The position numbers and the translations under genes were made by a program. From positions 28,572-52,571 of the forward strand of contig CAVRKM010000003.1 of assembly GCA_963722245.1 (NCBI GenBank): a stretch of 24,000 bases of DNA. The letters run 5' to 3'. This document shows, piece by piece, positions 3,534-22,497 of this stretch (the stretch's first letter is position 1; each line of letters begins with the position of its first letter). The notes under the pieces are model-generated. The model searched no databases. It was not told the origin of the DNA and worked only from the letters and a program-made list of their open reading frames with translations. This DNA comes from an uncultured Thermoleophilaceae bacterium. GTDB taxonomy: Bacteria; Actinomycetota; Thermoleophilia; Solirubrobacterales; Thermoleophilaceae.

Positions 3534-3549
3534 GAGCGTTGCCGCGGAC

Positions 3550-6500
3550 ATGGCCCAGCAACGACGGTTCACCCGGCTTGCGATCGTCAACCGCGGCGAA
3601 GCGGCGATGCGGGTCGTGCACGCCGCTCGCGAGCTGAACGAGGAACGCGAGGAGCAGCTCCACCTGATCGCGCTCTACACCGAGCCGGAGGCCCAGGCGA
3701 TGTTCGTGCGTCGCTCCGACGAGGGCTACTGCCTGGGACCCGCCACCTACACCGCTGCGGACGGCAGCCACCGCGCCGGCTACCTCGACTACGGGGCCCT
3801 GGAACGAGCCCTGACCGAGACCGAAGCAGAGGCCGCCTGGGTCGGCTGGGGCTTCGTCGCCGAGCATCCGGACTTCGCGGAGCTGTGCGAGCGGCTCGGG
3901 GTCGTGTTCGTCGGACCGAGCTCCGAGACCATGCGGCTCCTGGGCGACAAGATCCGCTCAAAGCAGCTAGCCGAATCCATGGGCGTCCCGGTAGCCCCCT
4001 GGAGCGGAGGTCCGGTCGACACGCTCGCTGAGGCCGTGCGCCATGCCGAGACGATCGGCTATCCGCTGATGATCAAGGCCACCGCGGGCGGCGGCGGGCG
4101 CGGGATCCGCCGGGTCGAGGCGGCAGACCAGCTCGCCCCGGCGTTCGAGCGGGCCCGGGCGGAGGCCGAGCAGGCCTTCGGTGACCCGACGGTTCTCCTG
4201 GAGCATCTTGTGACGCCGGCCCGCCACATCGAGGTCCAGGCGATCGCCGACGGCGCGGGCGGCGCCTGGGCGGTGGGCGTGCGCGACTGCAGCCTGCAAC
4301 GGCGCCACCAGAAGGTGATCGAGGAGTCGGCCAGCACGGCGCTGACGCAGGCGCAGGAGGATGAAGTCAAGGAGGCGGCGCGGCGCCTGGTTCTCGAGGC
4401 GGGCTACCGCGGCGCGGCGACGGTGGAGTTCCTCTACGAGCCGGCGGAACGGCGCTTCTCCTTCATGGAGGTCAACGCCCGCCTCCAGGTGGAGCACCCG
4501 GTGACCGAGATGACGACCGGGCTCGACCTGGTCAAACTCCAGCTCCACGTCGCCGAGGGCGGGACGCTTGAGGGCGAGCCGCCGCCCGCCGCCGGCCACG
4601 CGATCGAGGCGCGGCTGAACGCCGAGGATCCCGCCATGGACTTCGCTCCGGCACCCGGGCGCGTGGAGCTGCTGACCCTGCCGAGCGGCCCGGGGCTGCG
4701 CTTCGACCGGGGCGTGGAGACCGGCGACGTCATCCCGCCTGAGTTCGACTCGATGATCGCGAAGGTGATCGCTGTCGGCCGTGATCGAAAAGAGGCCATC
4801 GCACGTCTTCGCCGCGCGCTGCGCGAGACGACCGCTCTGATCGAGGACGGCAGCACGAACCGGGGCTTCCTGCTCAGGCTGCTGGAGCACCCCGACGTCG
4901 TGGCCGGCCGCGTGGACACCACCTGGCTCGACCGGCATCGGATCGGTGCCGATGCGGACCGGCTCGCCCACGCCGACGTCGCACTGCTCCAGGCCGCGAT
5001 CGAGCTCGGCGGAGCAGAGGACGCCGCCGACCGGGCGCGCTTCTATGCCTACGCCCGACGCGGGCGGCCCGAGGCCCGTGACGAGGTGGGCCGCACCGTC
5101 GATCTTGCCTACGAGGGACAGAGCTACCGCTTCCGGGTGCTTCAGGTCGCGCCGGGGTGCTCCCGCGTCACGGTCGACGGCGCCACCGTCGAGGTGGACG
5201 TCGAGCAGCTCAGCGCGCACGAGCGACGGCTGGCCGCGAGCGGCCGCAGCCACCGGACGGTGATCTCCGAGCAGGGCAGCCACCTGCTCGTCGAGGTCGA
5301 CGGCGTGCCGCACCGCGTCTCCCACGACGAGGGCGGCATCGTGCGCAGCCACGCCCCCGGGATCGTCGTGTCGCTCCCGGTGGCCGAGGGCGACGAGGTG
5401 GACGCCGGGGACGTGGTGGCTGTGCTCGAGAGCATGAAGATGGAGTCGTCGCTCACCGCGCCGCGCGCGGGCCGGGTGCGCCGGGTGCTGGTGGGCCCGA
5501 ACACACAGGTCGGCGCGCGCACGCCGCTGGTCCAGATCGACGAGGCGCAGCGCGGCCCGGCCCAGGACGGCGGGGAGCGGATCCGGTTCGAGGGCGGCGA
5601 CGCCGAGCTGCCCGAGTCGCCGCAGCGATGCGTGGACAACCTGCGCCGGCTGGAGTGGCTCATCCTGGGCTACGACGTGACCGACGCCGACGTTCGGCGC
5701 ATCGTCGCGGATCTGCACGGCGCCTGCTCCGACCTTTCGTGCAGCCCGGAGCTGATCCCCGGCGAGCACCGGCTGCTGCGGCTGTTCGCGGACCTGCGAG
5801 CGCTGACGCGGCCGCGTCACGAGGAGGACCCGGAGGGCGAGCTGCTGCGCAGCCCGCAGGAGTACCTGCACGCGTTCCTGCGCTCGCTTGACGCGGAGTC
5901 CGAGGGCTTGCCCGACCGGTTCGTCGCGCTGCTCGAGCGCGCGCTCGCGCATTACGGGATCACAGAGCTCGACCGCACGCCCGCGCTCGAGGATGCCTGC
6001 TACCGCATCGCCCTCTCCCAACAGCGCGCGCCCGCCCAGCGCGCCGCGATTACCGCGGTCCTCGACCGCCGCCTCGAGCTGGCCGACGAGCTCGCCGGCA
6101 ACGTTCCCGACGACTTCCGCGAGGTGCTCGACCACCTCGAGACGACGATGGAGGGCCGCGACCCGGCGCTGGCCGACCTCGCTCGCCAGGTGCGCTACCG
6201 CTACTTCGACGAGCCGGTGATCGCGGCCCGCCGCGACGCGACGTACCGCGAGGTGGCGGACCAGCTGGCGGCGCTCGCGTCGGCGCCCGACGCGCCAGAC
6301 GCGCGCCGACCGGATCAGCGTGCTGGTCGAGTGTCCCCAGCCGCTGGCGCCGCTGCTCTCGAGCCGCATGCGTGCGGCTGATCCACCCTTGCGCCGGGCG
6401 CTGGTCGAGACAATGGCGCGCCGCTACCACCGCCTGGGCACGCTGTCCCCGTTCACCGAGGCGAGTGCAGGAGGAGTGTCCTTCATGTGCTCCGACCACG

Positions 6501-9158
6501 AGCGCGACGGCAAGACCCGGCGCCTCGCCGCCGCCTTCGTGGAACTCGATCAGGTCGGCGCGGCCGGCCACGCGCTGGCCGAGCTCGCGGGCGAGACCGA
6601 CGAGTCGATCGAGTTCGTGGCCGACTTCTACGCCGCCCACCCCGAGCCCGCCGAGTCGCACGACGAGCTTCGCGCCCGGCTGCGGCAGGAAATCGCGGAG
6701 GCCGCCCTGCCGACCCGGGTGGAAAGCGTGGTGTTCGCGTTCGCCGAGCCCGCGCGCGGGCGCGGCATGTCCGCCGTCGACTTCGTCAGCTTCCAGCCGG
6801 ACTGCCGACGGCACCCTCGCGGAGGACGACTCGCTGCGCGACCTCCATCCGATGATGGCCGAGCGCCTGCGGCTCTGGCGCCTTGCCGAGTTCGACCTGA
6901 CGCGGCTTCCCTCCGCCGAGGATGTCTACCTCTACAGCGGCGTGTCGAGGGCCAACCCGAAGGACGAGCGCCTCTTCGCGCTCGCCGAGGTGCGCGACCT
7001 GACACCCGTCAACGACGAGACGGGCCGTCTGCACGGGCTGCCCGAGCTGGAGCGGGTGCTGGTCGAGGCGCTCGAGGCGATGCGTGCCTTCCAGGCTCCC
7101 CGCGAGCCGCGCCGGCGCCTGCTCTGGAACCGAGTCCTGCTCTACGCCTGGCCCACGATCGACTTCGCCCCCGACGACGTGCGCCGCGTCATCGAGCGCT
7201 ACGCCCGCGCGACCGGGGGCCTCGGGATCGAGATGGTCGAGCTGCGCGGCACGATGCGCGATGAGGCCGGCGGGGAGTCGGAGCGCGAGCTGCGCTTCTT
7301 CAGCCCCACCGGACGCGGCGTGGTGGTGGAGGTGGACGATCCGCCCACCCGCCCGCTGCAGCCGCTCGACGAGGGCGCGCGACGGGTCGTGCAGGCGCGG
7401 CGCCGCGGCACCGTCCATCCCGCCGAGCTCGTGAAGCTGCTCGCCCCTGCGCGCGGGGACCGCGACCACGGGGGCCGGCCCCCCGGCGCCTTTGTCGAGC
7501 ATGACTTTGACGCTCGCGGCCGACTCGCGCCCGTCAGCCGCGGCCCGGCCCTGAATGAGGCCAGCGTCGTGGTGGGAGTGGTGAGCAACTACACCGATCG
7601 CTATCCCGAGGGCATGCAACGCGTCGCCCTGCTGAGCGACCCCACACGCGCGCTGGGCTCGCTGGCCGAACCGGAATGCACCAGGATCATCGCCGCGCTC
7701 GACCTCGCCGAGAAACTCGGGGTGCCGGTCGAATGGTTCGCCCTGTCGGCTGGCGCCAAGATCGCGATGGACTCCGGCACGGAGAACATGGACTGGATCG
7801 CCGCGGTGCTGCGCAGGATCATCGAGTTCACCCAGCGCGGGGGTGAGCTGAACGTCGTCGTGACCGGCATCAACGTCGGCGCTCAGCCGTACTGGAACGC
7901 CGAGGCGACGATGCTCATGCACACGCGCGGGATCCTCGTGATGACGCCCGACAGCGCGATGGTGCTGACAGGCAAACAGGCGCTCGACTACTCGGGCGGC
8001 GTCTCAGCCGAGGACAACTTCGGCATCGGCGGCTACGAGCGGATCATGGGACCCAACGGGCAGGCCCAGTACTGGGCGCCCGACCTGGCGGCAGCCTGCA
8101 GGGTGCTGCTGTCGCACTACGAGCACACCTACGTGGCGCCCGGCGAACGCTTCCCGCGCCGCGCTCAGACCTCCGACCCGATCGAGCGCGACGTGTGCGG
8201 CTCGCCCCACTTCGCACCGGGGTCGGACCTGCGCGAGGTGGGCGAGATCTTCTCGGACGAGACCAACCCCGGCCGCAAGAAGCCGTTCGACATCCGCTCC
8301 GTGATGCTGGCGACGGTCGACCGCGACCATCCGCCGCTCGAGCGCTGGGCCGGGTGGCGCGAGGCGGAGGTCGCCGTGGTCTGGGACGCCCATCTGGGCG
8401 GCTGGCCGATCTCGGTGCTCGGCATCGAGTCCCGGCCCCTGTCGCGCCACGGGGCGCTGCCGGCCGACGGCCCCGAGCAGTGGACCTCGGGCACGCTCTT
8501 CCCCCAGGCGTCGCGCAAGATCGCCCGTGCGATCAACGCCGCCAGCGGTCGCCGCCCGGTCGTGGTCGTCGCAAACCTCGCCGGCTTCGACGGCTCACCC
8601 GAGTCGATGAGCCGCTGGCAGCTGGAGTACGGCGCCGAGATCGGCCGTGCCGTCGTGAACTTCAGCGGGCCGATCGTGTTCTGCGTCGTCTCGCGCTACC
8701 ACGGCGGCGCGTTCGTGGTGTTCTCCCAGCGGCTGAACGACGATCTCGAGGCAGTGGCGCTCGAGGGCTCACGCGCCTCGGTGATCGGAGGGGCACCGGC
8801 GGCGGCCGTCGTGTTCGCCCAGCAGGTGAAGCGGCGCACGACGCGCGATCCCCGGATCGTCGAGCTGGACGAGCGGATCGAGGCGGCCGAGGGGGCCGAG
8901 CGCCAGCGGCTGCGCGCGCAGCGTGCCGACGCCTGGTCTGAGGTCCACGCGCAGCATCTCGGAGAGCTGGCCGCGGAGTTCGACTCGATCCACTCAGTGG
9001 AGCGAGCGCTTCGGATGGGGTCGGTTAGCCGCATCATCGAGCCGGGCAACATGCGGCCGTTCCTGATCGACGCGGTCGAGCGCGGCATGGAGCGCACGCT
9101 CAAGCGAGACCACCCTGGTCATGACCTCGCCGGGCTGGCTGACGCGCTCCATCGCTGA
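3550..9158 (+). CDS. Single-chain multidomain acyl-CoA/acetyl-CoA carboxylase (biotin carboxylase, BCCP, carboxyltransferase), ~1850 aa. The frame is broken twice as assembled (~6300 and ~6803).
   Basis: The N-terminus FTRLAIVNRGEAAMRVV, KATAGGGGRGIRRV and MEVNARLQVEHPVTE identify the BC/ATP-grasp domain. The biotinylation motif is VLESMKMESS, with the Lys codon at 5437-5439. The CT domain shows VVTGINVGAQPYWNAEATMLMHTRGILVMTPDSAMVLTGKQALDYSGG and VVANLAGFDGSPESMSRWQLEYGAEIGRAVVNFSGPIVFCVVSRYHGGAFVVFS. The conserved reading passes from frame 1 (ORF 3550..6381) to frame 2 (ADRISVLVECPQPLAPLL..., ORF 6320..) to frame 0 (ADGTLAEDDSLRDLHPMMAERL..., ORF 6372..9158). Confidence 0.85.
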
Positions 9159-9834
9159 CGTCCCGGCGGACGACGGCTGGCTCGGTCCGGGCGAGCGCGA
9201 GGTGCTCGCCCGACTTCGGTTCGAGAGGCGCCGCCTGGACTGGCGGCTCGGCCGCTTCACGGCGAAGGCCGCCGTGGCGGCCTGGCTGGGCCTACCCGCC
9301 ACCGGCGTGGTGATCGCGGCCGCATCCGACGGCGCGCCAGAGGCCCGCGTCGGCGACGACCCGGCCCCGGTCTCGCTGTCGCTGAGCCATCGGGGCGGGC
9401 GCGCGCTCGCTGTGGTGGGCGAGGCGGGCATTGCGATGGGATGCGATCTCGAGTTAATCGAGCCGCGCAGCCGGGCCTTCGTGGCCGACTGGCTTGCGCC
9501 GGCCGAGCAGGCTCTGGTGGCCGATGCCTGCGCCTCCGACCGCGACCTGCTCACGAACCTCCTGTGGACCGCGAAGGAGGCCGCCGCCAAGGCACGGCGG
9601 GAGGGGCTCCGCCTTGATCCCCGGCACGCCGTGGCGACGCCCACCGGGATCGGTTCCACGACCCCCGGCTGGCGCCGGCTCGAAGTCATCTGGAGCGACG
9701 GCGGCGGGTGCGCCGCGGGCTGGTGGCGAGGCGAGCCGGGTTGGGTGATGGCAATCGCCGGCGAGCCGGCGCCCGGTGTCCCGCGGGCGCTCGACGCCGT
9801 GGCGACCGAGCCTGCACTGGACGATGGACCGTAG
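9121..9834 (+). CDS. Sfp-type 4'-phosphopantetheinyl transferase
   Basis: 237-aa ORF with IAMGCDLELIE (metal-binding GxD..E) and LLWTAKEAAAKARREG (W/FxxKEAxxK). It overlaps the carboxylase stop by 38 nt and sits next to a multi-ACP synthase. Confidence 0.8.
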   Translation: MTSPGWLTRSIADVPADDGWLGPGEREVLARLRFERRRLDWRLGRFTAKAAVAAWLGLPATGVVIAAASDGAPEARVGDDPAPVSLSLSHRGGRALAVVGEAGIAMGCDLELIEPRSRAFVADWLAPAEQALVADACASDRDLLTNLLWTAKEAAAKARREGLRLDPRHAVATPTGIGSTTPGWRRLEVIWSDGGGCAAGWWRGEPGWVMAIAGEPAPGVPRALDAVATEPALDDGP

Positions 9835-9975: not shown

Positions 9976-10010
9976 CAGTAACCCGCTCTCACCGAGCACG
10001 AGCGTTACTG
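9976..10010 (-). terminator. Stem-loop on the chromosomal side of the island junction, possibly the native terminator downstream of the original tRNA-Phe 3' end
   Basis: CAGTAAC(cc)GCTC, an 11-nt loop, then GAGCGTTACTG form an 11-bp stem with a 2-nt bulge. It abuts and overlaps the direct repeat at 10007. There is no T tract. Confidence 0.3.
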
Positions 10011-10050
10011 ATGGCGAGGGCCGGAATCGAACCGGCGACACCACGATTTT
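10007..10050. repeat. Distal att-type direct repeat: a copy of the 3' 39 nt of tRNA-Phe plus 5 nt of flank
   Basis: The 44 nt are identical to 22493-22536. A degenerate extension (10052-10059) matches 22537-22548 with indels. Confidence 0.9.
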
Positions 10051-10272
10051 TCAGTTGCTTCCGAAGGGTGTCGGGTGGTGCACTCGGGTGTTCCGTGGCT
10101 TGGTAGCGGGATAGCAGGTGCCTCGTGGTGCGCTCCGGTGCACCTGGAGGTTTCCAAGCCGTTTCGAAGACGGTGAAGGGCTGAGCGAGAGGCGAGCCCG
10201 CTTGCACGGCGGGTTCCTGCACGGACCTTTCCGGCGCCGCAAGCGGTCGAAGCTTCCCTGGAAGCGCTGAGT

Positions 10273-10317
10273 GGCCGGGCACCCGGGGACCGCAAAGGGC
10301 CCCGCGGATGCCCGGCC
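10273..10317 (-). terminator. Long GC-rich hairpin immediately downstream of the FAS1 gene
   Basis: GGCCGGGCACCCGGGGACC, loop gcaaa, then GGGCCCCGCGGATGCCCGGCC form an imperfect ~19-bp stem. It starts 10 nt after the stop codon (10327-10329). There is no U tract, as is common in high-GC actinobacteria. Confidence 0.45.
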
Positions 10318-10326
10318 TGCTCAGGG

Positions 10327-10845
10327 TCAGCGCGGAGGAAGCAGGACGGCGTTGATCGCGTGGATCACGCCGTTGGATGCCTTGACGTCGGCCTGGATCA
10401 CCTTCGCGCCGCCCACCCGCACGGTGCTTCCGCGGGTGCGGACGCGGACGCGAGGCCCGGCCAGGGTCTTGAGCGAGTCGACCTTCACTACCCGCGCGGC
10501 CGGGTAACGGCCGGCCACGGCGTGGTAGAGCAGCACGCGCTTCAGCGCCTTCGGGTCCTCACCAAGCGCCTCGAGGGTCTCGGCCGGGACCTTCTTGAAG
10601 GCCTTGTCGGTCGGGGCGAAGACCGTGAACGGCCCCTTCCCCGACAGTGTCTTTGCGAGCCCGGCGCTCTTGACGAGCGAGACGAGCGTGTCGAAGCGCC
10701 CGTCGGCGGCGGCTGTCTTCACGATGTTCTTCCGTGCCTGCTTTGCAGCGGGCTCCGCGGTGGAGCCGTTGCCGCCCCCGAGCGCGACGGCCGCGGTGGC
10801 GAGTCCCGCTACGGCGACCAGGACGAGGATTGCGAGCTTACGCAT
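10327..10845 (-). CDS. Secreted fasciclin (FAS1) domain protein
   Basis: 172 aa with signal peptide MRKLAILVLVAVAGLATAAVA. FAS1 motifs are FTVFAPTDKAF, LLYHAV and NGVIHAINAVLLP. AAGGAG (10857-10852) lies 6 nt before the ATG. Confidence 0.9.
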   Translation of the reverse strand: MRKLAILVLVAVAGLATAAVALGGGNGSTAEPAAKQARKNIVKTAAADGRFDTLVSLVKSAGLAKTLSGKGPFTVFAPTDKAFKKVPAETLEALGEDPKALKRVLLYHAVAGRYPAARVVKVDSLKTLAGPRVRVRTRGSTVRVGGAKVIQADVKASNGVIHAINAVLLPPR

Positions 10846-10869
10846 TAGTCACTCCTTCTGTCGATGTGC

Positions 10870-10919
10870 TGTACCACTCTTGTCCAAGAACTGTATAGCA
10901 CACGTCGAGCTACTGTCAA
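10870..10919 (-). promoter_or_regulatory. Predicted promoter of the FAS1 gene (TTGACA, 18-nt spacer, TACAGT) overlaid by 11-bp-phased TGT/ACA repeats; candidate LitR/CarH operator
   Basis: On the minus strand TTGACA is at 10919-10914 and TACAGT at 10895-10890. On the plus strand TGTAC starts at 10870, TGTCC at 10881, TGTAT at 10892, CGTCG at 10903 and TGTCA at 10914, an exact 11-bp phase. The 10-mer ACTGTATAGC (10890-10899) recurs at the litR promoter. Confidence 0.5.
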
Positions 10920-10975
10920 GACTGCCTCTTCCGGCGCCGTCCACGCCGGGGGCCGGGCAGGTCGTGCACCGGGCG

Positions 10976-11829
10976 CTAGAGCGTGGCGGCGACCGCTACC
11001 GGGTCGCCCGCCAGCACGCGGCAGCCGAGTGAGCGCGCCACGTCATCGCTGGCGCCCAAGCCGGCGATGGCGAGCGCATGGTCCTGAGCGAGCGCGGCCA
11101 GCTTGCTCGCCTCGGCGGCGGAAGCCCTGGGACGTCACGGCGGTTACGACGACGAGCGCCGGGCGCACCCGGTCGGCCGTCTCCGCCACGCTCGCCGCGG
11201 GTGTGTCGGCGCCGAGGAAGACGATCCTCCAGCCCCGTTCCCGCAGCGCCAAGCCGAACACGATGAGCGGCAGATCGTGCTGCTCGCCGGCCGCGCATGC
11301 GAGCAGGGCGATGCGGCCACCGCCCCGTTCCCATCCTCGCGCCAGGGCGAGTAGCCGGCCACGAATCAGGTTGCTGGCGAAGTGCTCCTGCGCGATCGAC
11401 ACCGCGCCTTGCTCCCAGCGGCTACCCAGGTCCCGCAGGTACGGGAGGATCACCCCGGACAGGGCGGTCTCGACCATGAACGTCCAGAAGACCTCGTCGA
11501 GCGCGGCATGGGCATCCTCGGCGTCCATAGTCGTCGAGGGCGGCCGTGAGCCGCTCGCGCGCGAGATGCAGTGCGCTCTCGTTGCCTCCCGTGCCGAGCT
11601 CAGGCTCCGCGAGCGCCAAGCGCGCGGCCTCGGCGGCGGAGATGCCGCGCTCGAGCTCTGCCTGCATCGCCCGGACCCGACGCTCGTCGTCGGGCGAATA
11701 CAGGCGCAGGCCGCCACCGGTGCGCGCGGGGTCGAGGAGCCCGTAGCGGCGCTCCCAGGCTCTCAGGAGCTCCGGACTCACACCGGTCCGGCGGCTGAGC
11801 TCGCCGATCCGCAGGGTGTGCACGCTCAT
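10976..11829 (-). CDS. litR: MerR-family, B12-binding light-responsive regulator (LitR/CarH type). The frame is broken twice as assembled (~11525 and ~11115-11135).
   Basis: The N-terminal MerR HTH is MSVHTLRIGELSRRTGVSPELLRAWERRYGLLDPARTGGGLRLYSPDD. The Wx9EH motif is RWEQGAVSIAQEH (W codon 11417-11415). The B12-binding segment GEQHDLPLIVFGLALRERGWRIVFLGADTP has its His codon at 11279-11277. The C-terminus is recovered in a third frame (AAEASKLAALAQDHALAIAGLGASDDVARSLGCRVLAGDPVAVAATL, stop at 10978-10976). Confidence 0.8.
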
Positions 11830-11832
11830 CGC

Positions 11833-11865
11833 TGTACTGTATAGCTTTTGTACAGAGGTGTGGAA
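11833..11865 (-). promoter_or_regulatory. Predicted leaderless litR promoter (TCCACA, 17-nt spacer, TACAGT) with TGT/ACA repeats; candidate autoregulatory operator
   Basis: TACAGT is at 11841-11836 and the A of the ATG (11829) is the 7th nt after it. TCCACA is at 11864-11859. Plus-strand TGT starts at 11833, 11838, 11849 and 11859. ACTGTATAGC at 11836-11845 is identical to 10890-10899. Confidence 0.45.
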
Positions 11866-11910
11866 GGACACGGGCGCCTCGCCCGCGAAGCTGTCTCGCC
11901 CCTGACGCTT

Positions 11911-12621
11911 ATGGCGGTCCAGCTCTTTCGCCATCGCGATCAGGACCCGTCCGTAGATGACAACGCACTGGTGACCTTCGCCCAAGAAGGTTTGCCGGTG
12001 ACCGAGGAGTACGACGGAGGCCGTCTCTTGACGCGCGTCAACGGGCGGCGGATGATCACGCCGCTCGTCCTCGTGCTGCTTGCGATCGGCAGCACGGACA
12101 TCCTGTTCGCACTGGACTCCATCCCGGCGGTCTTCGGCGTCACGGAGGAGACGTTCATCGTGTTCGCGGCCAAGGCGTTCGCCTTGCTCGGCCTGCGCGC
12201 GCTGTTCTTCCTGGTCACTGGACTGCTGGACCGGCTCGTCTACCTCTCAACGGGCCTATCGCTCATCCTCGCCTTCATCGGCGCCAAGCTCGTGCTGCAC
12301 TGGGGCCACCTCCAGAACCCCCATGTCCCTGAAATCTCCACCGGGGCATCGCTCGTGGTCATCGCGGTCGTGCTCGGTATCACGACCCTCGCCAGCCTCA
12401 CCGAAGTGCGCCGGAACCCGACCGGCGAGCGCATGCTGGTTCGCTGCGCTCGCACCCGCCGGAGTCCCCGCCCCGCCGCGGGCCGACCGAAACACCGTCA
12501 AAGGCGCCCAAGGGCCCATGGCAACGAAGCGGCCGAAGTGATTCGGCACCCTCGACCTCCTGAACGGCAAGCGGAACGTGAAGTGCCCGTTCGCCGCGGA
12601 TATCCCTGCAAACACGCATGA
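11911..12621 (+). pseudogene. TerC-family membrane protein, C-terminal half only (5'-truncated remnant)
   Basis: GRRMITPLVLVLLAIGSTDILFALDSIPAVFGVTEETFIVFAAKAFALLGLRALFFLV matches the TerC core. The N-terminal ~4 TM segments are absent and the remnant begins at the litR promoter. The Arg-rich tail after ~12430 looks non-native. Confidence 0.6.
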
Positions 12622-12797
12622 TCAGGCGGTTGCGGGCGACGAGCCAGGCGCGGGCGCGGTCGTGACGTTCTGCACCATCCCGGGAACGTCTTAACCGGCG
12701 CGGACGGAGCCCGGTTTGTGCGACAGCCCCCATGGGAAGCGGCAGCGGCGGGCCGGGCGGCGGCGTCGCTCCAGACCTGTGGCCCGCCCGCGTCCGC

Positions 12798-13583
12798 TCA
12801 GCCGCCTGCGAGCGCGCCGGCGTAGACCTGCCATGCCAGCGCGCTCTTGGCGACCAAGCTGAGGATCAGGTAGACGCGCTCGGCGAACGCCGGGTCCGCC
12901 CAACGGCCGCGCTCACGGTACTGCAGCCACATGTTGACCGCGAACGTGTTGAAGAGCAGGAACAGCGTGACGAAGATCGCGACGACGAACCCGGGGACCC
13001 CGTTGCCGTCGCTAGTCGAGACGACGAGTTGGGCCGTGATCGCGATCCACGGGACGGCGCCAACCACGCACCCGAAGATGAACGGCCGCCAGTCCACCTC
13101 GTCACGGCCGGCGTTCACCTGCTCCTGCACAAGCCCGAAAAGGATCATCGCCGCATTCGCCCCGAACAGCGCGATCAGCGCGACGAGCTCGCTGACCCCA
13201 GCGAGCATCGCGATGAGCACGACCATGAGCGACGCGCTGACCGAGTACTCCCACCAGCGCGCCGGATTGATCCCGCGCGCAACGTTCGCCTCGTACCAGC
13301 GGCGCGGCCGCCCGCCGCTCAGCGTGAGGTGGTCGACCGCGGCGAGCAACAGAAACGCCGCGACCAGCCAGTCGATCCGCACACTGCCCAGGCTCGCGGA
13401 GCCGAAGTCGCCGGCGCCGGGCGGGCCGACCAGGAACGACGCCGTGATCGGGAGCGAGGCGGCAGTCGCGATCGCGAGCAGGACGACCGCCTGAAGCGCG
13501 TGCACGGAACCGACGATGACGTTCAGACGGCGCAGTCGGGAGGCCGCCGCGGCGTCGAGCTGGGCTGGCGCACGATCGGGCAT
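12798..13583 (-). CDS. Heliorhodopsin (7-TM retinal protein, HeR family)
   Basis: The 261-aa product is colinear with the 48C12 prototype as I recall it: LNVIVGSVHALQAVVLLA, RWWEYSVSASLMVVLIAMLAGVSELVALIALFGANAAMILFG, FGCVVGAVPWI, VPGFVVAIFVTLFLLFNTFAVNMWLQY and YLILSLVAKSALAWQ. H28, H85, E112 and K246 align with H23, H80, E107 and K241 at a constant +5 offset. The Lys codon is at 12848-12846. Confidence 0.9.
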   Translation of the reverse strand: MPDRAPAQLDAAAASRLRRLNVIVGSVHALQAVVLLAIATAASLPITASFLVGPPGAGDFGSASLGSVRIDWLVAAFLLLAAVDHLTLSGGRPRRWYEANVARGINPARWWEYSVSASLMVVLIAMLAGVSELVALIALFGANAAMILFGLVQEQVNAGRDEVDWRPFIFGCVVGAVPWIAITAQLVVSTSDGNGVPGFVVAIFVTLFLLFNTFAVNMWLQYRERGRWADPAFAERVYLILSLVAKSALAWQVYAGALAGG

Positions 13584-13795
13584 GTCCCCAAAGGTACGGT
13601 CGCGGGAGAGAAACGGACCCCGCGTGCCCGGAGGGGTGTCACGGGGATGCCGGACAACAGCGAAGCACGGCGCAAGCTGTAGCCCGAGAGAGCGACTTCT
13701 ACGGAGGGTGGATGACCGCCGACCTGATCGATCCCCTTCAAGGGACCGCCGGGCAGGCTCGGCTGGTGAGGCCGGGGCTGCCGGCGGCTTCGCCT

Positions 13796-14227
13796 TCAGC
13801 GATTGAGTTCGCGCTCGAGCCCGGCCCTCGCGTTGTCCCCGAGGCGCTTGAACATCAGGCCCAGGATCGGATCGGCGAGCTTCAGCAGGCCCTTGGGACG
13901 CAGGTCGGCATCGTAGGTGACCTCGGAGCCGCCGTCAGCGCCGGGCCGGAATGTGATCGTGTCTTCGGAGACGACCGTCGAGCTTTCGGCCCGGACAACG
14001 ATCCGCTCCGGCCGCTCGAAGGTCATGGTCCGGTAGACGAACGGCAGCTCCCGGCCTGCGAAGCGAACGACGACCTCGAATTCCGTGCCGAGCCCCGGTT
14101 GTTCGCCGAGCATCCGGGCGCTGACCGCGGTCTCGTCCCACTCCCTGACGGAGCTGAAGTCGGCCAGGTAGTCGAAGGCCTCGCCCTGGGGCTTGCGTGA
14201 GTGCACGGTGGCCACGTAGCGGGCCAT
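13796..14227 (-). CDS. SRPBCC (START/polyketide cyclase-dehydrase-like) family protein
   Basis: The 143-aa reading starts at the ATG at 14227, preceded by AAGGAGG. MARYVATVHSRKPQGEAFDYLADFSSVREWD...TYDADLRPKGLLKLADPILGLMFKRLGDNA is typical of the small SRPBCC ligand-binding fold. Confidence 0.7.
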   Translation of the reverse strand: MARYVATVHSRKPQGEAFDYLADFSSVREWDETAVSARMLGEQPGLGTEFEVVVRFAGRELPFVYRTMTFERPERIVVRAESSTVVSEDTITFRPGADGGSEVTYDADLRPKGLLKLADPILGLMFKRLGDNARAGLERELNR

Positions 14228-14338
14228 CAGTCGCCCTCCTTGCCGCCGGAGGCGATCGTCGGCACCGTCCCGGCATCCTCGCTCCAGCCGGAGAGACGGG
14301 AGCATTCGTCCCAAAGTCGCTCGCGGTCGGCCTCGGAC

Positions 14339-15247
14339 TCACGCGTCCACGGCACCCGGTGGGTGGACCGCGGGCGCGCGGTCGTGCCAGAACAGACCCG
14401 GGCGCTCGGCAGGCTCGGCGGCCGTCGCGAGCCAGACGATCGTGTCGGCCGCCTGGTCGGCGCTGCGGAGCAGCGGGCGCATCAGCTTGCGGAAGCGGGG
14501 CAGTGACGTCTGCACGCCGGGCGTGTCCGCCCAGCCCGGGTGCATGGCGTGGACGCCGATTCCGGTTTCGCGAAGCCGCTCAGCCCAGAGTTCGGTGAGG
14601 ATCACCTCGCAGCGTTTGGTGTGTGCGTAGAACGCCGGCGGGTCGTACTCGCGGCGCTCCAGCTGGAGGTCATCGGCGCAGAGCCGTTGCGTGTACATGC
14701 CGCCCGAGGAGACGTTGATCACCCGCGAAGGCGCGCCGCGGCGCAGGGCCGGCAACAGCAGGTTGGTGAGCAGAAACGGGCCGAGCACGTTGGTCGCGAA
14801 GGTGAGCTCGAAACCCTCCTCGGTGTGAGTGCGCGTGGACGGCATCACGCCGGCGTTGTTGACGAGCACATGAAGCTCGCCGTGCTCGCTGACGAAGCGA
14901 GAGCTGAACTCACGCACCGAGGCGAGGCTGGACACGTCGCAGACCTCTACCTCCAGGTGGTCGGAGCCGGTGCGCTCGGAGATGCGAGCCCTGGCTCTCT
15001 CGCCCTTTTCACGGTCACGGACGAGCATGTGCACGGTAGCGCCAAGGCCCGCGAACCGCTCGCACGCGGAGGCGCCGATCCCCGCTCCGGCGCCGGTGAC
15101 CAGCACCGACCAACCTGCCGGGGCCGCCTTCGGATCGGGGTCGTTCCAGAACCGCTCCCGCACGGCAAACCCGAGCCTGCTGTAGCCGGGCAGGACAGTC
15201 CAATCGAGGGTCTTGTCGAGGAGGCCGGAGATCAAGGCTCCATTCAC
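14339..15247 (-). CDS. Short-chain dehydrogenase/reductase (DHRS12/retinol-dehydrogenase-like subfamily)
   Basis: GTG start at 15247 follows AGGAGAGG. Motifs are VLVTGAGAGIGAS (TGxxxGxG), NNAG and YAHTKRCEV (YxxxK), with the N-terminal LDKTLDWTVLPGYSRLGF extension. The rest of ORF 14339..15967 upstream is out-of-frame overlap with the next gene. Confidence 0.8.
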   Translation of the reverse strand: MNGALISGLLDKTLDWTVLPGYSRLGFAVRERFWNDPDPKAAPAGWSVLVTGAGAGIGASACERFAGLGATVHMLVRDREKGERARARISERTGSDHLEVEVCDVSSLASVREFSSRFVSEHGELHVLVNNAGVMPSTRTHTEEGFELTFATNVLGPFLLTNLLLPALRRGAPSRVINVSSGGMYTQRLCADDLQLERREYDPPAFYAHTKRCEVILTELWAERLRETGIGVHAMHPGWADTPGVQTSLPRFRKLMRPLLRSADQAADTIVWLATAAEPAERPGLFWHDRAPAVHPPGAVDA

Positions 15248-15885
15248 GCTACCTCTCCTGACTCTGCGGGCGTCCTCATGGCCTTCGTCGAGCGCGACGG
15301 CTGAGCGGAGTAATGGCCCGACGACCCTCGATGCGCAGGCCGCTCGCAACCGGACGAAGACCAGAAGCCCCGAAGTGCGAGCCGCCATCCGGCGCAGACG
15401 TGCCAGCGATCGGCCCGGACGTGCGCACACCAGCGGTCGCGCAGCGCGGCGATCTCGGCAAAGGCCTGTGGGTGCTCTGTCCCGAGCAGCGTGTAGGCCT
15501 CGGGCTTGGCCACCGTCAGCGAGGCCAGCACCTGCGGCGTCGTGACCGCCACATACAGCCCGGTCGCCCCACCCCAGAAGAACCCGATGAGATGAACCGG
15601 CTCGCCGACATGGTTCACGACGGCATGGACCTGGTCGGCGTAGTCGTCGAGGGTCCTCTGCCCTGGAGTGCCGGAGCCGTCGCCGTCGCGGTACGCGTCC
15701 ACCGCGATCAGCCGGTACCCCTCTGGCCACAGCGAGAACACCGCCCGCCACTCGCCGGCGCTGCCCACGCCACTGTGCAGGAACACCGCCGCGGTGCCGT
15801 TGCCGCGCTCGACGATCCGGTTTGCTGTGGCGGTACGTCGCGACGGCGGTCGACCGGGTGCTGCCGGGGCTCGGGCGAGGTGCAC
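15244..15885 (-). CDS. Alpha/beta-hydrolase-fold protein, short and probably degraded, with Phe at the nucleophile position
   Basis: GTAAVFLHSGVGSAGEWRAVF...YRLIAVD...VHLIGFFWGGATG fits the fold (oxyanion HG, nucleophile elbow GxSxG read as GFFWG). The C-terminal ~60 aa is Trp/Cys/Arg-rich and lacks the Asp/His region. The stop overlaps the SDR start in GTGA. Confidence 0.5.
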   Translation of the reverse strand: MHLARAPAAPGRPPSRRTATANRIVERGNGTAAVFLHSGVGSAGEWRAVFSLWPEGYRLIAVDAYRDGDGSGTPGQRTLDDYADQVHAVVNHVGEPVHLIGFFWGGATGLYVAVTTPQVLASLTVAKPEAYTLLGTEHPQAFAEIAALRDRWCAHVRADRWHVCAGWRLALRGFWSSSGCERPAHRGSSGHYSAQPSRSTKAMRTPAESGEVA

Positions 15886-15899
15886 TGCGGCGGCCCGGC

Positions 15900-16345
15900 G
15901 TGGCGGGCAGCCCGTCGAGGGCCGCGGTCGACGAACTCCTCAACGGCGCCGCCGGGCTGCGGCGCAAGCTGGTGATCGTGCTTGGCGATCTCCACGCGGT
16001 GACCAGCCAGGAATGCCTGGCGTCGATCGACTACGCCCTCGCGCACTTTCCTGCGAACACGCACGTCGTCCTCGTTACACGCGTCGATCCGGCGCTCAGG
16101 CTCGCGCGTTTGCGCGCCGGGCGATGCGCTCGCCGAGGTGCGTGCTGATCTCGCGTTGACCCACGCCGAGGCCCACGAGCTGGTCGTGGTGCTCGGTCAT
16201 CTCGAGCTCGCTGCGGAGCAGATCGACGTGCTCGTCGAGCCCACCGAGGGCTGGCCCCGCGGCGCTCGTCCCCGCCTGGCTGTGGCTGCGGACCGTCGAC
16301 GATCCGGCGCGGGCCCGTGCGGGCGTTCGGAGGAGACCACCGCCT
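15900..16345 (+). pseudogene. Central fragment of a MalT/LuxR-type large ATP-dependent regulator (both ends missing, several frame breaks)
   Basis: KLVIVLGDLHAVTSQECLASIDYALAHFPANTHVVLVTRVDPALRLARLRA is followed, in other frames, by DLALTHAEAHELVVVLGHLELAAEQIDVLVEPTEGWP, AALV..WLWLRTVDDP and VRAFGGDHR. There is no NTPase P-loop and no C-terminal HTH. Confidence 0.55.
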
Positions 16346-16642
16346 TCATGCGCCGAGTGCATGGCCGACCTTGACGATGACATAGCCGAGGCCCGCCGCC
16401 CCGAATGCGCGGCGCAGCCAGTTCGTGCCGTCCGCCAGCTCCTCCCACGCCCACGCCGCGAGGCCGGTGTAGAACGTGGCACGCGCGTAGGCATGCGCCG
16501 AGCCGTCCGTCAGCGCCGCGACGAGCCACCCGCCCAGCGCGACGAGCAGCGGCGCGTTCGGGAACTGCGCGACCGGGTAGCTCGCCGGCCAGCCGTGCTG
16601 CCCGCGCCGCCAGGGGTCCCTCGGTGTCGATGTGGTGCTCAC
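16346..16642 (-). CDS. Small hypothetical membrane protein
   Basis: ~98 aa from the GTG at 16642: FPNAPLLVALGGWLVAALTDGSAHAYARATFYTGLAAWAWEELADGTNWLRRAFGAAGLGYVIVKV. It is protein-like in composition and divergent from the acyltransferase gene. The start codon is uncertain. Confidence 0.45.
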   Translation of the reverse strand: MSTTSTPRDPWRRGQHGWPASYPVAQFPNAPLLVALGGWLVAALTDGSAHAYARATFYTGLAAWAWEELADGTNWLRRAFGAAGLGYVIVKVGHALGA

Positions 16643-16732
16643 CGGTGCTGAACCTAGCGGTCGCCCGCCGGGATCGCAGAGAATGGCGACGTGGAGCGGG
16701 GAGGCGTCGACGAGACCCGCGCGGAGACCGTC

Positions 16733-17734
16733 ATGCGACGGCTGCGCACGATCCCGCCGCGCGTGCTGGGGTTGCTGCTGGTCACGGTGCTGCTGCCCGG
16801 TGCTGCTCGTCGTCGCCGTCGTGATCGACGCGCTGCGCCGGGTGGCGTTTGGCGTGCCGCCGACGGCCGCGCGGCTCGTCCTGTTCCTCTGGGTGTACCT
16901 CGCCGCCGAGGTCGCGGGCGTCGCCGCGCTGGCGACGCTGTGGGTCGCGAGCCTCGGCGGCCGGCGCAGCGCCTGGCTGCGTGAGATGACCTGGCGCGTC
17001 CAGCAGCTGTGGGCCGGCGCGCTGCTCGGCGCGGTGCGTGCGCTGTTCCGGCTGCGGCTCGAGGTCGCGGGTGGCGACGAGGTCGCGCCGGGGCCCGTGA
17101 TCGTGCTGATCCGCCACGCGAGCATCGTCGACAACCTGCTGCCGGCGAACCTCGTCGCCCGCCCGCACGGGATCCGCCTGCGCTACGTGCTCAAGCGCGA
17201 GCTGCTCGCCGATCCCTGCCTCGACATCGCCGGGCGACGGCTGCCGAACTACTTCGTGCGCCGCGGAACGGGCGAGGCGCAGGAGCTCGAGCGGGTGCGG
17301 GCGCTCGCCCACGGCCTCGGGACCCGGCGACGGCGTGCTGATCTATCCCGAGGGGACCCGCTTCACGCCGGAGCGCCGCGCCCGCGCGATCGCGCGCATC
17401 GCCGAGCGCGACGCGCGACCTGGCCGCGCGGGCGGAGCGGATCCGGCATCTGCTGCCGCCGCGCCTCGGCGGCGTCGGCGCGCTGCTCGACGGCGCACCG
17501 GACGCCGACGTCGTGGTGATCGCCCACCACGGCTTCGACGGCCTGCGGCTGATCTCGGACATCTGGCGCGGCGGCCTCGTCGGGCTCGTGGTCCGGGTGC
17601 GCGTGACGCGGGTGCCGCGGTGCGCGGTGCCCGAGGCGGATGCCGCCCGCGCGGACTGGCTCTACGAGCTCTGGCAGGACGTCGACGACTGGCTCGACGA
17701 GCAGTTCGAAGAGCGCCGCCGCGCGGATACCGGC
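16733..17734 (+). CDS. PlsC-family lysophospholipid/1-acyl-glycerol-3-phosphate acyltransferase. The frame is broken 3 times as assembled (~16798, ~17320, ~17410).
   Basis: MRRLRTIPPRVLGLLLVTVLLP continues in another frame as VLLVVAVVIDALRR. Motifs follow: VLIRHASIVDNLL (HxxxxD), GDGVLIYPEGTRFTPERR (next frame) and RIRHLLPPRLGGVGALLDG...VVVIAHHGFDG (next frame). No stop precedes the DUF1295 start in that last frame. Confidence 0.7.
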
Positions 17735-18520: not shown

Positions 18521-18562
18521 GCGCCGGGCCGGGCCTTAGGTCTCCGTCGGAGCCGGCCCGCC

Positions 18563-19520: not shown

Positions 19521-19580
19521 GCCTACGGTCCTCTCAGCTCCGGGCCGCCCACTGGCGAGATTATGCAGAGGCCGGTGCTC

Positions 19581-19873
19581 TCAGCCTGCGAGCGCGCCGG
19601 CGTAGACCTGCCATGCCAGCGCGCTCTTGGCGACCAAGCTGAGGATCAGGTAGACGCGCTCGGCGAACGCCGGGTCCGCCCAACGGCCGCGCCCACGGTA
19701 CTGCAGCCACATGTTGACCGCGAACGTGTTGAAGAGCAGGAACAGCGTGACGAAGATCGCGACGACGAACCCGGGGACCCCGTTGCCGTCGCTAGTCGAG
19801 ACGACGAGTTGGGCCGTGATCGCGATCCACGGCACGGCGCCAACCACGCACCCGAAGATGAACGGCCGCCAGT
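19581..19873 (-). pseudogene. 3' fragment of a second heliorhodopsin gene (last ~96 codons, TM6-TM7 including the retinal Lys)
   Basis: The 293 nt match 12798-13093 with 2 substitutions and one in-frame 3-nt indel. There is no 5' part and no credible start. Homology stops 13 nt from the MFS stop codon. Confidence 0.85.
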
Positions 19874-19886
19874 AGACCCGAGTCCT

Positions 19887-21880: not shown

Positions 21881-21893
21881 ACGCGCCCAAAGC

Positions 21894-22485: not shown

Positions 22486-22497
22486 CTCTAGGACTGA

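What the first reader, a model, noticed from the sequence alone, without database searches (positions are those of the whole stretch)
10870..10919. Canonical promoter of the FAS1 gene overlaid by five 11-bp-phased TGT/ACA elements (candidate CarH/LitR operator)
Read in the direction of the fasciclin gene, the stretch contains TTGACA (10919-10914), an 18-nt spacer and TACAGT (10895-10890). About 38 nt later come AAGGAG and the ATG. Superimposed on this, TGTAC, TGTCC, TGTAT, CGTCG and TGTCA start at 10870, 10881, 10892, 10903 and 10914, exactly one helical turn apart from upstream of -35 to downstream of -10. As I recall it, the Thermus CarH operator is a set of tandem 11-bp direct repeats with a conserved ACA (nAnnTnnACAn) overlapping the promoter. 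The regulator gene ends only ~50 nt away, and its own promoter shares the 10-mer ACTGTATAGC. This predicts dark repression and light induction of a secreted FAS1 adhesion-type protein, an unusual LitR target, since the known regulons are mostly carotenoid genes.
Basis: partly seen in the sequence, partly recalled or inferred. Interest (0 to 1): 0.7.

Follow-up and report, generated by a model that had tools for sequence, protein, structure and literature searches.

The report
Light-switch operator on a fasciclin gene promoter
The promoter of a secreted fasciclin-domain gene is overlaid by six helical-turn-spaced repeats that match the known binding site of the vitamin-B12 light sensor CarH/LitR encoded next door, and the same arrangement recurs in dozens of related soil actinobacteria, so this gene is very probably switched on by light.

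Summary
On the minus strand, 10923-10858 holds six in-phase 11-mers, not five: AGTCTTGACAG TAGCTCGACGT GTGCTATACAG TTCTTGGACAA GAGTGGTACAG CACATCGACAG. They run from the -35 (TTGACA) through the -10 (TACAGT) to the Shine-Dalgarno. No shuffle reproduces this.

The unit matches the published CarH operator repeat, 5'-nnnnTnnACAn-3', tandem at 11 bp. The adjacent regulator is a class I CarH/LitR: MerR HTH plus B12 domains, Wx9EH, His ligand, and a full-length match to Thermus CarH.

Among 80 related litR loci (all Thermoleophilia), 53 carry arrays of at least three full repeats. The arrays are 287-fold concentrated next to litR. A fasciclin gene, usually preceded by a DUF378 gene, is the commonest neighbour (45 of 80).

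Strain-level variants change only the "n" positions of the repeats.

The two frameshifts in the window's litR are absent from all eight independent assemblies that cover them (seven for the first site), so they are probably assembly errors.

Verdict: a genuine CarH/LitR-type operator, a new member of a known kind, with an undescribed conserved target (DUF378-FAS1, sometimes heliorhodopsin). Binding and light induction remain untested.

The parts
10858..10923 (-). Operator: six contiguous in-phase 11-bp repeats. DR1 10923-10913 AGTCTTGACAG; dr2 10912-10902 TAGCTCGACGT; DR3 10901-10891 GTGCTATACAG; DR4 10890-10880 TTCTTGGACAA; dr5 10879-10869 GAGTGGTACAG; DR6 10868-10858 CACATCGACAG. Four are full nnnnTnnACAn repeats and two are pseudo-repeats.
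   Evidence: register, uniqueness, shuffles; scores against a matrix built from related loci are 12.4, 1.6, 10.7, 12.1, 2.0 and 7.0, against a window background of -20.6 +/- 7.1; strain variants change only non-consensus positions.
10914..10919 (-). -35 hexamer TTGACA of the FAS1 promoter. Its ACA is the core of DR1.
   Evidence: Invariant in alignment A1 with L002, L003, L004, L006 and L015.
10890..10895 (-). -10 hexamer TACAGT of the FAS1 promoter. Its ACA is the core of DR3. The 18-nt spacer follows from the two ACA cores lying 22 bp (2 x 11) apart.
   Evidence: The spacer arithmetic comes directly from the sequence.
10852..10857 (-). Shine-Dalgarno AAGGAG, immediately after DR6 and 6 nt before the FAS1 ATG.
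   Evidence: sequence.
10327..10845 (-). FAS1 (fasciclin-domain) gene, 172 aa, with an N-terminal hydrophobic signal-like segment. Predicted target of the operator.
   Evidence: PF02469, E 9.5e-39. (PDB relatives: TGFBIp, Fdp, CupS, MPT70, AstaP). (linked to litR in 45 of 80 related loci).
10976..11829 (-). litR/carH gene: MerR HTH plus B12-binding_2 plus B12-binding. In this window it is broken by two single-base insertions, near 11529 and near 11115.
   Evidence: domains, three reading frames. (Thermus CarH 5C8D/3WHP, E 3e-29, full length). (NCBIfam CarH best hit). (intact 283-aa gene in sister assemblies; both insertions unique to the window).
11837..11858 (-). Two full repeats at the litR promoter, CCTCTGTACAA and AAGCTATACAG. 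They overlap a TACAGT -10 (11841-11836) that ends 6 nt before the litR ATG, which suggests a leaderless or near-leaderless transcript. Probable autoregulatory site. It contains the shared 10-mer.
   Evidence: (scores 12.6 and 13.9; the only other positive site in the window).. (both repeats invariant among strain variants).

Best explanation
The 66-bp array is the operator of the adjacent class I (adenosylcobalamin-dependent) CarH/LitR repressor, laid over the sigma-A-type promoter of the fasciclin gene.

In the dark, AdoCbl-bound LitR oligomers (tetramers in the characterised homologues) would place one DNA-binding domain on each 11-bp repeat, all on one face of the helix. They would cover the -35 (DR1), the spacer (dr2), the -10 (DR3) and the first ~25 nt of the transcribed region (DR4 to DR6), excluding RNA polymerase. 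Light would photolyse the cofactor, the oligomer would fall apart, and FAS1 would be transcribed. A two-repeat site over the -10 of litR itself would give autoregulation.

Six contiguous repeats are twice the Thermus operator. This suggests two adjacent oligomers or alternative binding registers.

Shown here: the sequence architecture, its non-randomness, its match to the published CarH repeat, its conservation beside litR in related genomes, and the CarH signature of the regulator. Inferred: binding, dark repression, light induction, stoichiometry, and the transcription start (about 10883).
For: 1. Non-random six-slot phasing that is unique in the window, over a canonical promoter.

2. The unit fits the published CarH operator repeat nnnnTnnACAn, tandem at 11 bp and overlapping -35/-10 (PMC9304148, PMC8156234).

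3. The regulator 56 nt upstream has a MerR HTH plus both B12 subdomains. It aligns full-length to Thermus CarH/LitR (E 3e-29) with W-x9-EH, the lower-ligand His and the recognition-helix motif LRxWERRYG conserved. It carries the GxxW, EH, GxxH and GxxxP signature elements of PMC11796333. NCBIfam's best hit is 'repressor CarH'.

4. In 80 litR loci from Thermoleophilia genomes, 53 have arrays of at least 3 full repeats. 55 arrays lie in the 220 bp at the litR start, against 7 in the other 638 kb, a 287-fold difference in density. 200 Markov simulations gave none.

5. Five of the seven arrays found elsewhere sit before a DUF378-led operon (DUF378-FAS1 in L002, L006 and L015; DUF378-UvdE in L004) or beside a second litR copy (L010). 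In L015 uvdE separates litR from the array, so the array tracks the FAS1 operon and not only litR.

6. FAS1 is linked to litR in 45 of 80 loci and DUF378 in at least 35.

7. In the closest relatives the same TTGACA-N18-TACAGT promoter with 4-5 in-phase repeats precedes DUF378-FAS1 or DUF378-UvdE, and the promoter hexamers and T/ACA columns are the invariant ones.

8. Among 7 strain-level variants that encode the identical FAS1 protein, 12 of 66 operator columns vary. Eleven are at 'n' positions, none of the 18 ACA columns varies, and the single change at position 5 restores the consensus T (Fisher p = 0.023).

9. A position matrix from the related loci finds only two sites in the 24-kb window, the FAS1 promoter and the litR promoter.
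Against: - No binding, footprint, transcription start or expression data exist for this or any Thermoleophilia LitR.
- In this window litR carries two frameshifts. If they are real, the operator has no cognate repressor in this strain.
- Six contiguous repeats exceed any characterised CarH operator (3 to 5), and the window is the only one of 81 loci with a run of six. Stoichiometry is therefore a guess.
- Two of the six units are imperfect (ACG; G at position 5).
- The A at position 2 of the Thermus consensus is not conserved here.
- The regulator has ExHxxP rather than ExHxxG, and Glu rather than His after the signature Trp. Its photochemistry may differ in detail.
- The NCBIfam CarH score (141 bits) is far below the equivalog cut-off of 400.
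Confidence: 0.8

Rival explanations
1. The operator is genuine but orphaned. In this strain litR is a pseudogene with two real frameshifts, so FAS1 is expressed constitutively and the repeats are a recent relic.
For: The window's litR switches reading frame twice. Neither insertion lies in a long homopolymer (C/A to CTA; CGCG to CGCCG), so they are not the classic long-read error type.
Against: Both insertions are absent from all 7-8 independent assemblies that carry the identical FAS1 protein, and five of those have an intact 283-aa litR called. Apart from the two extra bases the reading frame is fully preserved, with no stop codons or degraded motifs. The window has frame breaks in several other genes: a multidomain acetyl-CoA carboxylase split over three frames, PKS pieces, and an integrase. 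A near-identical long-read-style contig (L082) shows its own private single-base indels. This pattern points to assembly noise.
Confidence: 0.12
2. The 11-bp phased repeats are bound by some other regulator that uses direct repeats one helical turn apart (for example an OmpR/PhoB-type response regulator), and the neighbouring LitR is coincidental.
For: Direct repeats at 11-bp spacing are also used by winged-helix response regulators (own knowledge; ArcA direct repeats appear). No binding data tie LitR to this DNA.
Against: The arrays track litR in 53 of 80 genomes with 287-fold local enrichment. One also lies beside a second litR copy (L010). The repeat unit equals the experimentally defined CarH repeat. 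No response-regulator gene is among the recurrent neighbours.
Confidence: 0.05
3. The pattern is a by-product of a strong promoter plus chance. TTGACA and TACAGT with an 18-nt spacer automatically place two ACAs 22 bp apart, and the rest is AT-rich promoter and leader sequence.
For: Two of the five ACAs are indeed the promoter hexamers (direct reading of the sequence). The core region is 48% GC, against 61% for the whole 132-nt intergenic region.
Against: Local shuffles that keep composition never reach 5 in phase (0 of 5000). Three more ACAs and the ACG fall in the same register. Position 5 is T in 5 of 6 units. The pattern is conserved across genomes and across strain variants.
Confidence: 0.02

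Closest known systems
Thermus thermophilus CarH (LitR) operator at the carH/crt promoter (structures 5C8D/5C8E)
   Same: Tandem 11-bp direct repeats with T at position 5 and ACA at positions 8-10. One repeat contains the -35 element. The regulator is a MerR-HTH plus AdoCbl-binding protein with Wx9EH. The window's LitR aligns to it over its full length (E 3e-29).
   Different: Thermus has three repeats and this site has six contiguous ones. The A at position 2 is not conserved here, while C4, K7 and R11 are preferred. The target is a fasciclin gene, not carotenoid genes. The regulator has Glu rather than His next to the signature Trp, and ExHxxP rather than ExHxxG.
Bacillus megaterium CarH operators and the Myxococcus/Cystobacter P_crt operators
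   Same: Four (B. megaterium) or five (Myxococcus DR1-dr2-DR3-DR4-dr5) 11-bp units that mix full repeats (DR) and pseudo-repeats (dr), covering -35 and/or -10. TTGACA lies inside a DR. In Cystobacter two units bind overlapping sites. The window's DR-dr-DR-DR-dr-DR mix is the same design logic.
   Different: The window's array is longer (66 bp) and extends through the 5' untranslated region to the ribosome-binding site. In most Thermoleophilia relatives it is replaced by two separate three-repeat arrays that are out of phase with each other.
Class II LitR light regulons of Pseudomonas (PplR/PmlR)
   Same: LitR-family control of non-carotenoid light-response genes: photolyase, short-chain dehydrogenase, FAD oxidoreductase, and the cyclopropane/furan fatty-acid synthase UfaM. 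The Thermoleophilia litR neighbourhoods also hold amine-oxidase-type flavoprotein, CMAS and SDR genes, and UvdE.
   Different: Class II proteins lack the Rossmann B12 subdomain and depend on LOV partners. The protein here has both B12 subdomains and the AdoCbl signature (class I). No fasciclin, DUF378 or heliorhodopsin targets are reported there.

Membership tests
CarH/LitR operator (tandem 11-bp direct-repeat operator) | Tandem direct repeats of exactly 11 bp | tested here: met
   Six consecutive units in one register, 10923-10858. Period 11 is the only period from 7 to 15 with more than 3 in-phase ACA.
CarH/LitR operator (tandem 11-bp direct-repeat operator) | Unit sequence 5'-nnnnTnnACAn-3', with pseudo-repeats tolerated (PMC9304148) | tested here: met
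   Four units match fully. Two are pseudo-repeats (ACG; G at position 5, which is T in sister strains).
CarH/LitR operator (tandem 11-bp direct-repeat operator) | Overlaps the -35 and/or -10 of a sigma-A-type promoter | tested here: met
   DR1 contains TTGACA and DR3 contains TACAGT. The promoter is predicted, not mapped.
CarH/LitR operator (tandem 11-bp direct-repeat operator) | Linked to a carH/litR gene and conserved at orthologous loci | tested here: met
   litR ends 56 nt upstream. 53 of 80 related loci carry arrays of at least 3 full repeats, with 287-fold enrichment at litR.
CarH/LitR operator (tandem 11-bp direct-repeat operator) | Bound by the AdoCbl-loaded regulator in the dark and released by light | not testable with these tools
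   Needs EMSA or footprinting in dark versus light.
Class I (AdoCbl-dependent) CarH/LitR photoreceptor-repressor | N-terminal MerR-type winged-helix DNA-binding domain | tested here: met
   PF13411 E 9.6e-17 and PF00376 E 4.6e-11. Recognition helix LRAWERRYG versus LRQWERRYG in Thermus CarH.
Class I (AdoCbl-dependent) CarH/LitR photoreceptor-repressor | C-terminal four-helix bundle plus Rossmann B12-binding module with Wx9EH and a lower-axial His | tested here: met
   PF02607 and PF02310. W-EQGAVSIAQ-EH and GEQH align with W131/E141/H142 and H177 of Thermus CarH. GxxW, EH, GxxH and GxxxP are all present. The classical ExHxxG reads ExHxxP.
Class I (AdoCbl-dependent) CarH/LitR photoreceptor-repressor | Intact open reading frame | tested here: inconclusive
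   Broken by two 1-nt insertions in the window. An intact 283-aa gene is called in five independent assemblies with the identical FAS1, and neither insertion is present in any of the 7-8 assemblies covering the sites.
Class I (AdoCbl-dependent) CarH/LitR photoreceptor-repressor | Meets the curated equivalog threshold (NCBIfam NF052513 TransRegCarH) | tested here: not met
   Best hit, E 3e-41, full length, but 141.5 bits against a cut-off of 400. It is a distant homologue, not an equivalog by that model.
Class I (AdoCbl-dependent) CarH/LitR photoreceptor-repressor | AdoCbl binding, dark oligomerisation, photolysis-driven disassembly | not testable with these tools
   Biochemistry required.

The most novel reading that the evidence does not exclude
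In Thermoleophilia the B12 photoreceptor LitR controls a conserved, previously undescribed light-induced cell-envelope module rather than carotenoid genes. The module is a small DUF378 membrane protein plus one to three secreted fasciclin proteins, and in some genomes heliorhodopsin in the same operon. The fasciclin protein could act as an extracytoplasmic photoprotective or chromophore (carotenoid/retinal)-handling protein, by analogy with the carotenoid-binding, photo-oxidative-stress-induced fasciclin AstaP. That would make one photoreceptor (B12-LitR) the transcriptional gate for another (heliorhodopsin). The six-repeat contiguous operator would hold two LitR tetramers side by side.
Probability: 0.2. 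Interest if true: 0.75.

Novelty: new member of a known kind. Interest (0 to 1): 0.55.

Why it matters
CarH/LitR operators have been characterised in only a few organisms (Thermus, Bacillus, myxobacteria, Streptomyces), almost always in front of carotenoid genes.

This result extends the same 11-bp repeat code to a deep actinobacterial class that is abundant in soil. It gives a lineage-specific consensus, WnnCTnKACAR.

It also points to a conserved set of predicted light-induced genes with no ascribed role in light responses: DUF378, bacterial fasciclin proteins, and in some genomes heliorhodopsin, whose physiological role is still largely open.

Two cultured species (Conexibacter arvalis, Solirubrobacter soli) carry the same layout, so the prediction can be tested directly with dark/light RNA measurements.

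The compact promoter-operator (about 80 bp), with repeats that double as the -35 and -10, could also serve as a green-light switch for high-GC hosts.

Tried and rejected
- A crude GC3-based gene caller over-extended ORFs and missed small genes such as DUF378. I replaced it with HMMs built from clustered ORFs and searched against six-frame translations, then recounted without overlap filtering.
- I looked for a LitR site upstream of the window's heliorhodopsin/SRPBCC/SDR genes. None was found by reading 13584-13860 or by matrix scan. In this window heliorhodopsin is therefore not predicted to be under direct LitR control.
- I considered whether the litR-proximal repeats in the window share the orientation seen in relatives. 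They do not. In most relatives the repeats point away from litR, while here the two repeats are on the litR sense strand. The region abuts a short TerC gene that is equally short in sister assemblies, so this is not a misassembly.
- No intrinsic terminator was found between litR and FAS1, so read-through from litR cannot be excluded.
- Literature searches combining CarH or LitR with fasciclin, DUF378, Solirubrobacter or Conexibacter found nothing relevant. The heliorhodopsin context papers list MerR-family and TerC neighbours but do not mention B12, LitR or fasciclin.
- L082 shows insertions that would break the 11-bp phase. I treated these as long-read noise, because that contig has other private single-base indels, and excluded it from the variation test.
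- I did not use the metagenome scan, structure prediction or the large protein searches. The genome scan and the exact-protein look-up already answered the question.

Full report
**1. What is in the sequence**

On the minus strand the region reads:

...ggcAGTCTTGACAG TAGCTCGACGT GTGCTATACAG TTCTTGGACAA GAGTGGTACAG CACATCGACAG AAGGAGtgactaATG.

- TTGACA (10919-10914) and TACAGT (10895-10890) are separated by 18 nt. This is the only strong sigma-70-like site the scanner reports in 10200-12100 (10 of 12 matches; 0.0 expected).
- A sixth, at 10859-10861, was missed. The array therefore has six slots (five ACA, one ACG) and runs from the -35 to the base before the Shine-Dalgarno.
- Five of the six units also have T at position 5.
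- The two promoter hexamers supply two of the ACA cores. Because those cores must lie 22 bp (2 x 11) apart, the spacer has to be 18 nt.

**2. Is it more than chance?**

- ACA is rare in this window (135 per strand). No other site reaches more than 3 in-phase ACA at any period from 7 to 15.
- The six-slot pattern is found once, and never in 100 whole-window shuffles.
- Dinucleotide shuffles of the local 132-nt and 85-nt segments never reach five ACA at period 11 (0 of 5000).
- They never reach five for any trinucleotide at periods 8 to 14 (0 of 1500).
- The 10-mer ACTGTATAGC is present exactly twice, at the FAS1 promoter and at the litR promoter, with 0.01 expected.

**3. The genes**

- Downstream is a 172-aa fasciclin-domain protein (PF02469, E 9.5e-39) with a hydrophobic N-terminal segment.
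- Upstream on the same strand is a MerR-HTH plus B12-binding_2 plus B12-binding protein, split over three reading frames.
- Repaired, or taken intact from a sister assembly (283 aa), it aligns over its full length to Thermus thermophilus CarH/LitR (5C8D, 3WHP; E 3e-29).
- The Wx9EH motif, the lower-axial His and the recognition helix LRxWERRYG are conserved.
- It has the GxxW, EH, GxxH and GxxxP signature elements.
- NCBIfam's best hit is 'repressor CarH' (E 3e-41), although far below the equivalog cut-off.
- It is therefore a class I, AdoCbl-type member of the LitR/CarH family as defined in PMC9758184.
- Further upstream lie a short TerC gene, a heliorhodopsin gene (12798-13583; PF18761 E 3e-90; NCBIfam HeR equivalog), and SRPBCC and SDR genes.

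**4. The published operator**

PMC9304148 and PMC8156234 state that CarH tetramers bind tandem 11-bp direct repeats of sequence nnnnTnnACAn (nAnnTnnACAn in Thermus).

- There are three repeats in Thermus, four in B. megaterium and five (a mix of full and pseudo-repeats) in Myxococcus.
- The repeats overlap -35 and/or -10, and TTGACA can lie inside a repeat.

The window array is DR-dr-DR-DR-dr-DR under this definition.

**5. Comparative test**

A genome-collection scan with the repaired LitR returned 80 loci. All are Thermoleophilia (Thermoleophilaceae, Gaiellaceae, Solirubrobacterales), at 49-68% identity. They include the cultured Conexibacter arvalis DSM 23288 and Solirubrobacter soli DSM 22325.

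- Arrays of at least three full repeats occur in 53 loci.
- 55 such arrays lie within 220 bp of the litR start (17.5 kb in total), against 7 in the remaining 638 kb. That is a 287-fold difference in density. None appeared in 200 Markov simulations of the litR-proximal segments.
- Of the seven arrays elsewhere, three lie just downstream of litR in front of DUF378-FAS1 or DUF378-UvdE (L002, L004, L006). This is the window's layout.
- One precedes DUF378-FAS1 although uvdE separates it from litR (L015).
- One lies beside a second litR copy (L010).
- Two sit in the leader of another gene (L011, L013).
- The lineage consensus is WnnCTnKACAR.
- A matrix built from these repeats, excluding the window, picks out only two places in the 24-kb window. 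At the FAS1 promoter, six consecutive units score 12.4, 1.6, 10.7, 12.1, 2.0 and 7.0 against a background of -20.6 +/- 7.1. At the litR promoter, two units score 12.6 and 13.9.

**6. What the operator controls in relatives**

HMM maps of the loci give the following picture.

- The gene set most often placed divergently from litR is a small DUF378 membrane protein (35 loci) or another small membrane protein (11 loci).
- This is followed by one to three FAS1 genes. 41 loci have FAS1 on the divergent side, and four more have it downstream of litR.
- Heliorhodopsin, UvdE, or SDR-SRPBCC-UvdE sometimes follow.
- Other recurrent neighbours are uvdE downstream of litR and an amine-oxidase-type flavoprotein with CMAS and SDR. 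That set resembles the Pseudomonas LitR light regulon.
- No carotenoid genes were among the recurrent neighbours.

In the divergent layout there are usually two three-repeat arrays.

- One covers the litR promoter, and its TTGACA serves as the -35 of the divergent promoter.
- The other covers the 5' leader down to the ribosome-binding site (...ACAG GAGGTnnACAG nnATG).
- The two arrays are out of phase with each other.

In the window's own clade the promoter TTGACA-N18-TACAGT carries 4-5 contiguous repeats. The invariant alignment columns are the hexamers and the T/ACA positions.

The longest uninterrupted run of positive-scoring in-phase units is 3 in 54 loci, 4 in 14, 5 in 2 (L002 and L006, the closest relatives) and 6 only in the window.

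The window and its strain-level siblings lack the DUF378 gene, so the operator feeds straight into FAS1.

**7. Strain-level footprint and the frameshifts**

An exact-sequence look-up of the FAS1 protein found eight further contigs from independent metagenome assemblies.

- Five have an intact 283-aa litR called, in the same position.
- The two extra bases that break the window's litR are a T near 11529 and a C near 11115. The T is absent from all seven assemblies that cover that site. The C is absent from all eight.
- The window also has frame breaks in a multidomain acetyl-CoA carboxylase, PKS pieces and an integrase.
- A near-identical contig (L082) has its own private single-base indels.
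- I therefore rate the frameshifts as probable assembly errors (about 0.8). A real, recent inactivation remains the alternative.

Across the strain variants, 12 of 66 operator columns vary.

- Eleven are at unconstrained positions.
- None of the 18 ACA columns varies.
- The one change at position 5 turns the window's pseudo-repeat 5 into a full repeat in other strains (Fisher p = 0.023).
- The two litR-promoter repeats are invariant.

**8. Mechanism**

The best-supported reading (0.8) is classical CarH-type steric repression.

- In the dark, AdoCbl-LitR oligomers occupy the repeats on one DNA face and block RNA polymerase at -35/-10 and just downstream.
- Light photolyses the cofactor, the oligomer dissociates, and FAS1 is transcribed.
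- litR is autoregulated through its two-repeat site over a TACAGT box that ends 6 nt before its ATG. This suggests a leaderless mRNA.

Shown: the architecture, the statistics, the conservation and the regulator signature. Inferred: binding, the direction of regulation, the stoichiometry on six repeats (two tetramers is my guess) and the transcription starts.

**9. Rivals**

- Orphaned operator with a truly dead litR (0.12).
- A different direct-repeat-binding regulator (0.05).
- Promoter hexamers plus chance (0.02).

**10. Comparison and novelty**

This is a CarH/LitR operator by every sequence-level criterion I could test. The functional criteria cannot be tested with these tools.

It is a new member of a known kind, with three distinguishing features:

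- a contiguous six-unit array;
- promoter hexamers that double as repeat cores;
- a conserved target set (DUF378-FAS1, sometimes heliorhodopsin) that I could not find described in the searched literature.

The FAS1 protein has solved relatives that include the carotenoid-binding, photo-oxidative-stress-induced AstaP (8C18, E 2e-10). Others are FAS1 proteins of photosynthetic complexes (CupS, LRC6). This makes a photoprotective or chromophore-handling role conceivable, but it is speculation.

Interest: moderate (0.55). It is a solid, directly testable extension of B12-based light regulation with a new output, not a new principle.

Noticed in passing
window 10007-10050 and 22493-22536; tRNA-Phe 22498-22570 (-); integrase fragment 21895-22491: A perfect 44-nt direct repeat consists of the 3' part of tRNA-Phe(GAA) plus 5 nt, with copies 12,486 bp apart. 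A Phage_integrase-family ORF fragment lies next to the complete tRNA. Together they look like the att sites of a ~12.4-kb tRNA-Phe-integrated island (10051-22492) that carries FAS1, litR, TerC, heliorhodopsin, SRPBCC, SDR, an acyltransferase and MFS genes. The same tRNA fragment lies ~280 nt after FAS1 in L081 and L082, but the DNA beyond it differs among the three assemblies.
   Followed up: partly
window 12804-13098 and 19584-19878: A 295-nt repeat at 99% identity duplicates the 3' third of the heliorhodopsin gene next to an MFS transporter gene. It is either a recent rearrangement scar or an assembly artefact.
   Followed up: no
window 12798-13583 (-); L032 3145-3996; L054, L067, L077: A heliorhodopsin gene sits 1 kb upstream of litR. 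In some relatives heliorhodopsin appears to be under the LitR operator. In L032 it is directly divergent from litR, with the TTGACA of the third repeat as its -35. In L054, L067 and L077 it closes a FAS1 operon that starts at the operator. This would make a B12 photoreceptor the gate for a rhodopsin gene. No LitR site lies upstream of heliorhodopsin in the window itself.
   Followed up: partly
window 51-9158 (+): A PKS-like region (ACP, KR, DH pieces) and a eukaryote-type multidomain acetyl-CoA carboxylase (BC-BCCP-BT-central-CT) are split over several reading frames, followed by a PPTase (9121-9834). The many frame switches suggest indel errors in this assembly.
   Followed up: partly
window 11848-12621 (+): The TerC-family gene lacks about 110 N-terminal residues relative to the 336-aa TerC in L002, and it begins right at the litR promoter. 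It is equally short (197-220 aa) in sister assemblies L081 and L082, so the junction is real and not a misassembly.
   Followed up: partly
L001-L080 (litR flanks): Recurrent litR neighbours in Thermoleophilia form a UV/light-damage set without carotenoid genes: UvdE endonuclease (often directly downstream of litR), an amine-oxidase-type flavoprotein with cyclopropane-fatty-acid-synthase-like CMAS and SDR, SRPBCC, and a 75-aa membrane protein with no Pfam match.
   Followed up: partly
L011 2265-2297; L013 1848-1880: Three-repeat arrays lie in the leader of a minus-strand gene about 1.7-2 kb from litR, possibly the ~616-aa 'fam12' protein that also follows FAS1 in L017, L027 and L035. This is a further candidate regulon member and was not identified.
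   Followed up: no
LitR protein (window 10976-11829; L083:452-1303): The residue after the signature Trp is Glu (RWEQG), whereas Thermus CarH has His (AWHRG). That His forms the bis-His adduct after photolysis. The classical ExHxxG also reads ExHxxP. The post-photolysis chemistry of this LitR may therefore differ.
   Followed up: no
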